Positions 34,161-35,393 of a DNA stretch of 64,000 bases are shown one piece after another (position 1 is the stretch's first letter; every line of letters begins with the position of its first letter). The notes beneath the pieces were generated by a model. The model had not been told where the DNA came from, made no database searches, and saw only the letters and a program-made list of their open reading frames with translations. Made by a program: the position numbers and the translations under genes. The stretch lies in assembly GCF_055900595.2 (NCBI RefSeq), contig NZ_CM148325.1; one strand, written 5' to 3'.

Positions 34161-34820
34161 TTGTCAGATGAATTTTTATACGGAACTCTTTTCAGTATGC
34201 GTACACGAATTGATTATCTGGCGGATAAATACTGTTTTACAGAACGGAACGAATCCCCCCGTCTTCGCCGGCAGTGGCAGGATGTTCTGGAGGAGTGCCG
34301 GCAGACAGAGGCCGGGCCAGAAGAACGGCTGCGTATTGCACTGCTGAATGTGGATTACGTCACCAGTTTTGAACTGCCTTTTCGCTTGTTGCTTACCCGG
34401 ACACCACAACTGATTGCCGCGCTGCGTGAAGAATGGGACATCAGTCAGAAAAATGTGGTGTTTAACGATAAACGGTTTGGTTGCGTGTACAGCCTGAAGG
34501 CCAGCCTTTCTGGTGTGCCGGATACATTCCGGTATCATCTGTCTCACCGTATTCGTCGCGTGGTTGGGAATGAAAACACATCATTGCCATATCAGCAGGT
34601 TGCCCGGGAAGTGAAAGCGCCCCGTGAACGGCTGAAGTATGCACTGGAGGCGGGTTTACTGGTGACTGCACTGGACGGCCTGTTCTGGTCTGGCAGTCAG
34701 CGTATTGCGGCTGATGTTCTGAGGCTGAGAAAGGCCGGAATGCCGGTGGTGACCACGACCGTGGAGGTGCACGATAACCTGACAGGAACAACCCGCAAAG
34801 TACCGGCATACCATCTCTGA
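34161..34820 (+). CDS. Hypothetical protein, function unknown
   Basis: 219-aa ORF with normal codon usage; no family recognised by eye. Confidence 0.45.
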   Translation: MSDEFLYGTLFSMRTRIDYLADKYCFTERNESPRLRRQWQDVLEECRQTEAGPEERLRIALLNVDYVTSFELPFRLLLTRTPQLIAALREEWDISQKNVVFNDKRFGCVYSLKASLSGVPDTFRYHLSHRIRRVVGNENTSLPYQQVAREVKAPRERLKYALEAGLLVTALDGLFWSGSQRIAADVLRLRKAGMPVVTTTVEVHDNLTGTTRKVPAYHL

Positions 34821-34840
34821 TACAACCATCAGGGGGAATA

Positions 34841-35149
34841 TTGCTCTGGCAGCAGCAGTACGACATTCTTTATACTTTATCCCCGTGCCTGAAAACATGT
34901 GCTAAGGAAACGGGAATGGCAAGGTCCGATTACGATATTATCAATCTGTCTCTGGAACATGAACTGAATGAGTGGCTGGCAGAGAGAGGTTATGCCGGAC
35001 TGGTGGATAACCGGAACCGCCTGGCAGAGGTGGTTACCCGGAAATTGCAGGACAGCTTTTATATCAACGTTTCCTGGGATGCGCTGAACACAGCATACAG
35101 TGAACACCCGGAGTGGTTTTCAGGGCTTGTCTCCGGGGATGAGAATTAA
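34841..35149 (+). CDS. Small hypothetical protein (start may be at internal Met MARSDYDIINL)
   Basis: ORF only. Confidence 0.3.
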   Translation: MLWQQQYDILYTLSPCLKTCAKETGMARSDYDIINLSLEHELNEWLAERGYAGLVDNRNRLAEVVTRKLQDSFYINVSWDALNTAYSEHPEWFSGLVSGDEN

Positions 35150-35201
35150 TAAGTGGATTATGCTGCCATCAGGCAGTGTGATTGCCGGCAGGGATTTCGT
35201 T

Positions 35202-35393
35202 TTATTCTGTTTCTTCCCGGGGTTCGGGTTTGAATTTTCCCAGAAAGTTGTACATCGGTCGCATGCAGGGATGCGGATAGCCGTCCCGCATAAACACCAC
35301 CCGGGTTTCCTCAACACTGGTCACGGTGACAAGTGCACCATGATCGTCTTTGTATCGCTGATTGACTTTCGGTAATGGAACATCTTCTGACAT
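35202..35393 (-). CDS. Small prophage-type protein (DUF4222-like suspected)
   Basis: 63 aa, ...HGALVTVTSVEETRVVFMRDGYPHPCMRPMYNF resembles small phage-associated proteins. Confidence 0.35.
   Translation of the reverse strand: MSEDVPLPKVNQRYKDDHGALVTVTSVEETRVVFMRDGYPHPCMRPMYNFLGKFKPEPREETE

What the first reader, a model, noticed from the sequence alone, without database searches (positions are those of the whole stretch)
34161..35393. Three small genes of unknown function immediately upstream of the CDI locus
A 219-aa and a ~77-102-aa ORF on the plus strand and a 63-aa ORF on the minus strand lie between the asr operon and cdiB. They are probably remnants of the mobile element that delivered the CDI locus; the 219-aa protein has no family I can recognise.
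Basis: inference. Interest (0 to 1): 0.3.

Follow-up and report, generated by a model that had tools for sequence, protein, structure and literature searches.

The report
Conserved genes flanking a swapped weapon locus
The three small genes are real, widespread E. coli genomic-island genes (a two-domain DNA-binding protein, a tiny E. coli-only protein and a small regulator-like protein); they sit beside the promoter of a type VI secretion weapon whose genes have been replaced here by a contact-dependent inhibition toxin cassette.

Summary
Observation confirmed. The three ORFs are intact and RefSeq annotates them in near-identical loci: 34197-34820(+), 207 aa, NCBIfam ECs1377 family; 34916-35149(+), 77 aa, no family; 35202-35393(-), 63 aa, DUF4222.

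They form a 1.7-kb backbone block (34148-35833) matched in 2353 of 5426 complete E. coli genomes. In EAEC 042 and STEC005 the same trio lies directly upstream of the Sci-1 type VI secretion cluster. In this window a 7.2-kb cdiBCAI cassette (35834-43073) replaces the 27 kb from tssB to tssE between identical flanks. The junction lies about 10 nt past the -10 box of the homologue of the published Fur/Dam-controlled sci1 promoter.

ECs1377 is modelled with high confidence as a tandem winged-helix DNA-binding protein. The 77-aa gene is almost confined to Escherichia and under purifying selection. The 63-aa protein is a distant, RGD-less paralogue of the regulator RgdR.

So they are neither CDI components nor decayed remnants. 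They are backbone genes that probably predate the CDI cassette. My best guess, which is inferred and untested, is that they are island-encoded transcription modulators acting at the adjacent promoter region. The genes themselves are ordinary. The promoter capture, and an exact ops (RfaH) site in the cdiB leader, are the interesting by-products.

The parts
34148..35833 (.). Conserved backbone block: the three genes plus the shared part of the divergent promoter region. It is the left flank of the island's T6SS/CDI slot.
   Evidence: blastn gives 92.4% identity to STEC005 and 92.6% to EAEC 042, with homology starting and ending at exactly these positions. Most E. coli hits start at query position 349-352, which is window 34148-34151.
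34197..34820 (+). ECs1377-family gene (207 aa; alternative TTG start at 34161 gives 219 aa). Predicted tandem winged-helix DNA-binding protein.
34916..35149 (+). 77-aa gene (alternative TTG start at 34841 gives 102 aa). Small helical protein with no family, almost confined to Escherichia.
   Evidence: RefSeq calls it a 234-nt hypothetical protein. No Pfam, NCBIfam, PHROG, PADLOC or PDB hit. 141 homologues, nearly all E. coli. pN/pS 0.00-0.15. AF2 pLDDT 69, three to four helices, no fold match.
35202..35393 (-). 63-aa DUF4222 gene, transcribed divergently from the sci1-type promoter. Paralogue of RgdR.
   Evidence: PF13973 at 82.1 bits against a cut-off of 27. 36% identity to RgdR/ECs1581 over the core, E=3e-12, and the aligned stretch starts after RgdR's RGD tripeptide. 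97% identical to the copy in the EDL933 ter/iha island.
35394..35833 (+). Intergenic region homologous to the EAEC sci1 T6SS promoter region (Psci1).
   Evidence: Alignment A6 with EAEC 042, STEC005 and the Citrobacter plasmid. 79% identity to STEC005. Psci1 is described in PMC3145626 and PMC13262931.
35765..35829 (+). Core of the Psci1 homologue: GATC-3 (35768-35771, within ATCGATCGAT), GATC-2 (35800-35803), -10 TATAAT (35811-35816), GATC-1 (35817-35820, TGATCA) and the F1-like Fur box (35811-35829, 12 of 19).
   Evidence: Positions. The three GATC sites and the -10 box are identical in EAEC 042, and the flanking bases partly differ. The layout matches the published description, with G1 inside F1 overlapping the -10 box. 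The Fur-box score alone is not above chance.
35834..43073 (+). Window-specific cdi cassette that replaces the T6SS cluster: leader, cdiB 35986-37725, cdiC 37735-38172, 5'-truncated cdiA 38124-42149, and downstream sequence not characterised here.
   Evidence: The segment has no counterpart in EAEC 042 or STEC005 between the conserved flanks. Pfam hits: ShlB/POTRA, HlyC, and Fil_haemagg plus PT-VENN.
35858..35909 (+). JUMPstart-like element ending in an exact ops site, GGCGGTAGCGTG (35898-35909), in the cdiB leader.
   Evidence: It is the only GGCGGTAGNNTG match in the 64-kb window, with 0.14 expected. RF01707 scores 21.3 bits, below the gathering score of 35. It is conserved in the TW10573 and EDL933 cdiB stubs.
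43074..48608 (+). Right backbone flank of the slot: a GIY-YIG/PD-Lambda-1 gene 43709-44875, a NERD+UvrD gene 45069-46856 and an intact ImpA_N/VasL gene 47270-48643.
   Evidence: 95.2% identical to EAEC 042, starting 157 bp after tssE. Pfam and PADLOC hits.

Best explanation
The three ORFs are intact backbone genes of the SpLE1/OI-43/48/pheU-type family of E. coli genomic islands. Together with about 440 bp of intergenic DNA they form a 1.7-kb block (34148-35833). This block is the fixed left flank of a 'weapon slot'.

In EAEC 042, STEC005 and about 190 complete genomes the slot holds the 27-kb Sci-1 type VI secretion cluster. In this window, and in at least 1256 genomes (mostly as decayed stubs), a cdiBCAI cassette occupies it. 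The cassette starts about 10 nt downstream of the predicted start site of the Fur/Dam-controlled sci1 promoter.

Shown:
- ECs1377 is a two-domain winged-helix protein, which is a DNA-binding fold. This rests on a model.
- The 77-aa gene is a young coding gene, almost confined to Escherichia, and under purifying selection.
- The 63-aa protein is a DUF4222 family member only 36% identical to RgdR.

Inferred:
- The trio are island-encoded transcription modulators: a DNA-binding protein, a small partner encoded 95 bp downstream on the same strand, and a small RgdR-like cofactor transcribed divergently.
- They act on the neighbouring promoter region, and so tune whichever weapon cassette sits downstream.
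- They are not parts of the CDI machinery.
For: Block boundaries and the cassette swap come, with annotations.

Frequencies.

Promoter homology: the conserved -10 box and the three GATC sites of Psci1 match the descriptions in PMC3145626 and PMC13262931.

Genes of the ECs1377 family lie co-oriented just upstream of T6SS clusters in Kosakonia, Citrobacter, Serratia and Yokenella. They lie just upstream of two-partner secretion/CDI loci in Serratia sp. DD3 and Citrobacter sp. 18056.

The DUF4222 family contains an experimentally shown regulator, RgdR.

Purifying selection.
Against: No experiment links any of the three genes to T6SS or CDI expression. The published work on Psci1 explains its regulation with Fur and Dam alone.

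In 80 species loci the neighbours of ECs1377 homologues are highly variable. Only about 9 have a T6SS or TPS locus nearby, and many are solitary genes next to tRNA-Arg or core genes. A distant homologue sits in a prophage.

The window's DUF4222 protein lacks the RGD motif shown to matter in RgdR, and it is only 63 aa.

No operator-like motif stood out, and the intergenic DNA is not alignable between genera. Promoter scans gave no more hits than chance.

The trio persists in most genomes where the cdi locus is only a stub, so its retention does not depend on a functional weapon.
Confidence: 0.5

Rival explanations
1. The trio are backbone genes that serve the island itself or act globally in trans, for example as xenogeneic regulators of unlinked loci in the way RgdR acts on LEE1 and motility. 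They have no specific role at the adjacent T6SS/CDI promoter, and their position beside the slot is only historical.
For: ECs1377 homologues have very variable neighbours in other Enterobacterales, and they remain as solo genes beside tRNA-Arg where no T6SS is present. RgdR acts on distant targets. The trio is retained where cdi has decayed to a stub. There are up to 5 copies of the block per genome.
Against: ECs1377 is found co-oriented with T6SS clusters of two different types and with TPS loci of at least three different types. This is far more often than expected for a random gene (estimate by inference). The DUF4222 gene shares its 5' region with Psci1.
Confidence: 0.3
2. One reading: the ORFs are decaying leftovers of the mobile element that delivered the CDI locus, with no present function.
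For: They lie in island DNA rich in IS elements and pseudogenes. ECs1377 is frameshifted in strain GmM062 and decayed on the Citrobacter plasmid. Many truncated or frameshifted 77-aa variants are in the databases.
Against: All three ORFs are intact here and in hundreds of genomes. Synonymous changes are in excess for ECs1377 and the 77-aa gene. The block also flanks an intact T6SS cluster, so it was not brought in with cdi.
Confidence: 0.07
3. The small genes form a toxin-antitoxin or anti-phage defence module, like much of the surrounding island cargo.
For: The neighbourhood is rich in defence genes: PD-Lambda-1, NERD+UvrD, Old and a type I R-M system. The gene sizes fit small TA proteins.
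Against: None of the three has a PADLOC hit. The 77-aa and 63-aa genes are convergent, not an operon. There is no toxin-like domain. The ECs1377 fold is wHTH only.
Confidence: 0.05

Closest known systems
[not shown]
   Same: This is the same three-gene block, 97% identical in DNA, in the same order and orientation, and followed by a HecB/CdiB-like remnant. In O157 the genes are listed as hypothetical proteins, and the region from the 3' end of ECs1377 onward is polymorphic between lineages (PMC1890555).
   Different: In O157 the upstream cargo is ter/iha rather than asr and a serine-protease autotransporter. cdiB there is cut by an IS element, whereas here cdiB and cdiC are intact.
Upstream flank and promoter (Psci1) of the EAEC 042/17-2 Sci-1 T6SS
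   Same: The same trio lies directly upstream of tssB (sciH), and the block is 92.6% identical. The window keeps the -10 box and the three GATC sites, and a 12/19 match at the position of the F1 Fur box, as described in PMC3145626 and PMC13262931.
   Different: From about +10 onward the window carries a cdi leader and cdiBCAI instead of tssB...tssE. The published Psci1 work does not mention the three upstream genes.
RgdR (ECs1581), DUF4222 regulator of LEE1/T3SS and motility
   Same: It has the same Pfam domain. The cores align at 36% identity. The source paper itself lists 63-aa 'truncates' on OI-43/48 and SpLE1 as family members.
   Different: The window protein is 63 aa against 99 aa. It has no RGD tripeptide. 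Its genomic context differs: a T6SS/CDI flank rather than the Sp7 satellite prophage. Its function is untested.
Phage HTH_39-type winged-helix proteins and other wHTH regulators (ArsR/MarR-like, Stf76)
   Different: ECs1377 has two such domains in one 207-aa chain, plus extra beta strands. No solved or viral structure matches the full length. The sequence hit to HTH_39 is below the Pfam cut-off.

Membership tests
NCBIfam NF052300 ECs1377 family | Whole-protein score above the curated cut-off (190 bits), with full-length model coverage | tested here: met
   322.6 bits, E=6e-97, model positions 1-190 of 190.
Pfam PF13973 DUF4222 | Score above the gathering threshold (27 bits) | tested here: met
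   82.1 bits, model positions 1-52 of 53.
RgdR orthologue (functional LEE1 activator) | Full-length protein of about 99 aa with high identity to ECs1581 | tested here: not met
   63 aa, and 36% identity over 58 aligned positions.
RgdR orthologue (functional LEE1 activator) | RGD tripeptide at residues 20-22, shown to matter for activity | tested here: not met
   The alignment starts at RgdR residue 24, after the RGD tripeptide. The window protein contains no RGD; it has R-D-G at residues 36-38.
RgdR orthologue (functional LEE1 activator) | Activates LEE1 and represses motility | not testable with these tools
   This needs reporter and motility assays.
Pfam PF14090 HTH_39 winged helix | Score above the gathering threshold (21.3 bits) | tested here: not met
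   15.4 bits, E=0.017, C-terminal 40 residues only. Some homologues carry the precomputed PF14090 hit.
Winged helix-turn-helix DNA-binding fold | Three-helix bundle plus beta-hairpin wing that superposes on solved wHTH domains | tested here: met
   [not shown]
Iteron-type plasmid initiators (tandem winged helix, RepA/RepE/Pi) | Full-length structural or sequence match to Rep_3-type proteins | tested here: not met
   [not shown]
CDI system components (CdiB, CdiA, CdiI, CdiC) | Homology to TpsB/POTRA, FHA repeats/PT-VENN or the HlyC acyltransferase, or an immunity gene placed directly after the toxin | tested here: not met
   None of the three has such a domain. They lie upstream of cdiB, and the same genes flank a T6SS cluster in other strains.
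Known anti-phage defence or TA systems (PADLOC) | A match to a PADLOC model | tested here: not met
   No hit for any of the three at E<=0.01.
Psci1 (Fur/Dam epigenetic switch promoter of Sci-1 T6SS) | -10 box overlapped by Fur box F1 containing GATC-1; GATC-2 between -10 and -35; GATC-3 upstream | tested here: met
   Positional homology with EAEC 042. All three GATC sites and TATAAT are conserved, and F1 matches 12 of 19 against 13 of 19 in 042 (description).
Psci1 (Fur/Dam epigenetic switch promoter of Sci-1 T6SS) | Fur binding, and methylation-dependent ON/OFF expression | not testable with these tools
   The Fur-box score alone is reached by most shuffles. This needs EMSA, FURTA and reporter assays.
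JUMPstart/ops (RfaH recruitment site) | Exact ops 12-mer GGCGGTAGnnTG on the transcribed strand of an operon leader | tested here: met
   35898-35909 on the + strand, the only match in 64 kb.
JUMPstart/ops (RfaH recruitment site) | Rfam RF01707 score above the gathering threshold (35 bits) | tested here: not met
   21.3 bits.

The most novel reading that the evidence does not exclude
The trio is a portable regulatory head that stays fixed while the downstream weapon is exchanged. ECs1377, helped by the 77-aa and DUF4222 proteins, binds the Psci1 region. The cdiBCAI cassette has captured this T6SS control region. E. coli CDI loci of this island family would then be switched ON and OFF by the Fur/Dam epigenetic switch. 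They would be read through by RfaH via the ops site in their own leader.
Probability: 0.2. Interest if true: 0.65.

Novelty: already known. Interest (0 to 1): 0.4.

Why it matters
The genes themselves are catalogued hypothetical island genes, so on their own they change little.

What is useful is the context. It gives a concrete, testable account of how a common class of E. coli CDI loci may be transcribed: from the promoter of the T6SS cluster they replaced, with an ops site for RfaH. As far as I recall, regulation of E. coli CDI loci outside strain EC93 is poorly understood.

The context also names three candidate regulators next to one of the best-studied T6SS promoters. The published Psci1 work I read does not mention them. 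Finally, it shows that whole antagonism systems can be exchanged as cassettes between fixed flanks within one island backbone.

Tried and rejected
1. PDB sequence searches for all three proteins gave nothing meaningful.
2. The fold search of the 77-aa model gave no match. The model itself has only pLDDT 69.
4. The idea that ECs1377 is universally T6SS-linked was rejected. Only about 6 of 80 species loci have a T6SS within 10 kb, and neighbours are otherwise very variable.
5. Operator motifs: repeat searches gave only short two-copy repeats. Intergenic DNA is not alignable across genera.
6. The sigma-70 and terminator scans gave no more than chance.
7. The Fur-box score is not above shuffles, so that argument rests on positional homology only.
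8. A defence or TA role was rejected by PADLOC and by gene orientation.
9. The first alignment was too diverse for the search for related loci, so I repeated the scan with closer sequences.
10. Literature searches for the locus tags, for T6SS/CDI swaps and for RfaH with CDI found no paper on these points. The searched library is limited to open-access text.

Full report
**The observation**

The ORF list shows 34161..34820 (+, 219 aa, TTG), 34841..35149 (+, 102 aa, TTG) and 35202..35393 (-, 63 aa, ATG). They lie between asrA (32754-33809, -) and cdiB (35986-37725, +; ShlB and POTRA domains).

RefSeq annotates the same three genes in near-identical loci. It calls them a 624-nt 'ECs1377 family protein' or 'DNA-binding protein', a 234-nt hypothetical protein and a 192-nt DUF4222 protein. 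I therefore take ATG 34197 (207 aa) and ATG 34916 (77 aa, AAGGA 8-9 nt upstream) as the likely starts. The homologues' N-termini and the NCBIfam model coverage agree for the first gene.

**What the three proteins are**

*The 207-aa protein* scores 322.6 bits on NCBIfam NF052300 (cut-off 190). It also matches phrog_24243 and has a weak C-terminal HTH_39 hit.
- An exhaustive HMMER search of 1.84 billion representatives found only 116 clusters, so the family is small.
- Named homologues and genome loci are almost all Enterobacterales.
- With a 22-sequence alignment, AlphaFold2 gives pLDDT 93 and pTM 0.85.
- By its secondary-structure order (helices 41-77 then strands 83-99; helices 142-179 then strands 185-206), I read the model as two helix-helix-helix-hairpin units plus extra strands.
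- BFVD returns about 70-aa phage HTH proteins.
- The two halves are weakly similar in register (E=0.033). Short DNA repeats lie 303-306 bp apart inside the gene. Both hint at an old internal duplication.

*The 77-aa protein* has no hit in Pfam, NCBIfam, PHROGs, PADLOC or the PDB.
- It has 141 database relatives, almost all E. coli. Many apparent 'divergent' ones are frameshift variants.
- A 62-aa in-frame deletion form is common.
- Substitutions against six other copies are strongly synonymous, for example 8 against 1, with pN/pS 0.00-0.15. It is therefore a real, young coding gene.
- Its model is helical but only pLDDT 69, and it has no fold match.

*The 63-aa protein* is DUF4222 (82 bits).
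- The characterised member of this family that I found is RgdR (ECs1581, 99 aa). RgdR activates LEE1 and type III secretion and represses motility.
- The RgdR paper lists 63-aa 'truncates' z1197/z1636 on OI-43/48 and ecs5415 on SpLE1.
- The window protein is 97% identical to the copy in the EDL933 ter/iha island.
- It is only 36% identical to RgdR itself. The alignment begins after RgdR's RGD tripeptide, and the window protein has no RGD.

**Distribution and linkage**

| Query | Genomes of 5426 |
|---|---|
| 33800-35800, any match | 2353 (up to 5 places per genome) |
| 33800-35800, at least 80% covered | 845 |
| DUF4222 + intergenic + first 115 bp of cdiB, at least 80% covered | 1256 |
| cdiB of this type, at least 80% covered | 190 |
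| STEC005 DUF4222-to-tssB stretch, at least 80% covered | 190 |

- For most records, homology begins at window 34148-34151, just after the asr cargo.
- Genomes without a near-complete cdiB keep stubs of 129, 437 or about 626 bp.
- Among the listed hits, only eleven also cover the asrA junction. So the left neighbour is variable cargo.

**The key context result**

A diverged copy of the trio in STEC005 is followed directly by a complete T6SS cluster, tssB through tssE. The same is true in EAEC 042, the model strain for the Sci-1 T6SS: ECs1377, the 77-aa gene and DUF4222 (-), then 506 bp, then tssB.

blastn of the window against 042 gives two collinear matches. Window 34148-35833 matches at 92.6%, and window 43074-48608 matches at 95.2%.
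- Between these matches, 042 has 27 kb, from just after the promoter to 157 bp past tssE.
- The window has 7.2 kb there: a leader, cdiB, cdiC (HlyC family) and a cdiA that lacks its TPS domain.
- The right flank holds a GIY-YIG/PD-Lambda-1 gene, a NERD+UvrD gene and an intact ImpA_N/VasL gene. The last is a T6SS-type accessory gene.

So a cdi cassette and a T6SS cluster are alternative occupants of one slot in one island backbone, and the trio is its constant left flank. I infer that the T6SS was the earlier occupant, for two reasons:
- A T6SS-type gene remains on the right flank.
- ECs1377 homologues (about 70% identity) sit co-oriented upstream of T6SS clusters with the same gene order (tssB-tssC-tssK-tssL-OmpA-hcp-tssH) in Kosakonia and Citrobacter.

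**The promoter**

Brunet et al. defined the sci1 promoter as the non-coding DNA before sciH. It has two Fur boxes and three GATC sites. G1 lies inside box F1, which overlaps the -10 box (PMC3145626). Taillefer et al. 2026 confirmed this layout (PMC13262931).

In alignment A6 the window is homologous to 042 through this whole core:
- ATCGATCGAT with G3 at 35768-35771
- G2 at 35800-35803
- TATAAT at 35811-35816
- TGATCA with G1 at 35817-35820
- an F1-like box at 35811-35829 matching 12 of 19 (042 gives 13 of 19, the published figure)

Homology stops at 35833, about 10 nt after the expected start site.

The Fur-box score alone is not better than shuffles. The case rests on positional homology.

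The cdi-specific leader that follows contains the only GGCGGTAGNNTG (ops) match in the 64-kb window, at 35898-35909 on the sense strand. It lies within a sub-threshold JUMPstart match of 21.3 bits against a gathering score of 35. It is conserved in the TW10573 and EDL933 stubs. Only about 25 nt of cassette-specific DNA precede the JUMPstart-like element. The operon's promoter is therefore most simply the captured Psci1; this is an inference.

I found no paper that connects Psci1, Fur/Dam or RfaH with CDI, or that mentions the three genes beside Psci1.

**How the trio might work**

A tandem winged-helix protein is most simply a DNA-binding protein. The 77-aa gene follows it by 95 bp on the same strand. 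The DUF4222 gene shares its 5' region with Psci1.

Across 80 species loci, ECs1377 homologues are found upstream of:
- T6SS clusters of two different types: L004, L019 and L073, against L037 and L051;
- three different TPS/CDI loci: L079, L092 and L029;
- fimbrial usher operons.

That is more than a random gene would show, by my rough estimate. But most loci have other neighbours. No neighbour family occurs in more than 11 loci. Several homologues sit alone against the 3' end of tRNA-Arg(CCT), between core genes. One distant homologue is in a prophage.

Hence my preferred reading is island-borne transcription modulators acting at the adjacent promoter region, at about 0.5. The main rival is backbone or global factors with no local role, at about 0.3. 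Decay remnants and TA or defence roles are unlikely.

**Verdict**

It is wrong about decay, and about the genes being delivered with CDI. The surrounding architecture is the more interesting outcome, and it is directly testable.

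Noticed in passing
window 35765-35833: The DNA upstream of cdiB is homologous to the Fur/Dam-switched sci1 T6SS promoter of EAEC. 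All three GATC sites and the -10 box are conserved. The cdi cassette begins about 10 nt after the predicted start site, which suggests promoter capture.
   Followed up: yes
window 35858-35909: An exact ops site (GGCGGTAGCGTG, 35898-35909) lies within a sub-threshold JUMPstart match in the cdiB leader. It is conserved in cdiB stubs of other islands and suggests RfaH-dependent read-through of the cdi operon.
   Followed up: partly
window 38124-42149: The cdiA ORF is only 1341 aa. It has FHA repeats and PT-VENN but no TPS secretion domain, and it overlaps the end of cdiC. The related strain GmM062 has about 9 kb of cdiA sequence in this interval. The CDI locus in this window is probably non-functional.
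   Followed up: partly
window 30183-32750: asrB appears split into a C-terminal part (30183-30662) and an N-terminal part (32466-32750) by an IS3-family element with two transposase ORFs (30813-31718 and 31838-32383). asrB is intact (819 nt) in strain GmM062.
   Followed up: partly
window 43709-50491 and 56877-62774: Anti-phage defence genes lie downstream of the slot: GIY-YIG/PD-Lambda-1, a NERD+UvrD candidate, an Old-family ATPase, and type I restriction-modification R and M subunits.
   Followed up: partly
window 47270-48643: An intact 457-aa ImpA_N + VasL gene (a T6SS accessory type) survives although the T6SS core is gone. In many other genomes, including EAEC 042, the same gene is annotated as broken fragments with a small 'POTRA' piece between them.
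   Followed up: partly
window 35393-35465: Next to the DUF4222 start there is a 25-nt direct repeat (35393-35417 and 35419-35443) and an inverted repeat (35443-35465). The T6SS-type copies have a longer, closer-matched inverted repeat. The first roughly 100 bp are much better conserved than the rest of the intergenic region. Folding the minus-strand RNA gives z=-2.1.
   Followed up: partly
window 34689-34691 (ECs1377 residue 165): The window protein has Ser where at least 90% of close homologues have Phe (LFWSGSQ against LFWFGSQ), inside the second winged-helix domain.
   Followed up: no
L051, L073, L079, L081, L092 (next to the ECs1377 homologue): A DUF2913 gene of about 210 aa accompanies the ECs1377 homologue in five loci. 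Four of these carry a T6SS or TPS/CDI locus (the fifth, L081, is a 3.9-kb contig). The gene is absent from the window and from STEC005.
   Followed up: partly
L014, L016, L023, L026, L056 (about 25-90 bp after the ECs1377 homologue); L062, L083 (about 0.7-0.8 kb after it): In Citrobacter, Lelliottia, Kluyvera and relatives, the ECs1377 homologue ends next to the 3' end of tRNA-Arg(CCT), beside a formate/nitrite-transporter-like gene and mlaA- and fadL-like genes. This looks like the far edge of a tRNA-Arg island whose T6SS is present in some species and lost in others.
   Followed up: partly
L099 10506-13052; L095 3493-6875: In T6SS-type islands the trio is preceded by hha, a YagK/YfjJ (inovirus Gp2-like) gene, two DUF7828 + zinc-ribbon genes and a 60-aa ORF. 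In the window this stretch is replaced by the asr operon and a serine-protease autotransporter, with the breakpoint at 34148.
   Followed up: partly
P0187, P0163, P0183 (77-aa gene variants): A 62-aa form of the small protein carries an in-frame 15-codon deletion, apparently between the short repeats 'WLAE' and 'RLAE'. One such sequence (P0187) was seen on 944 contigs.
   Followed up: no
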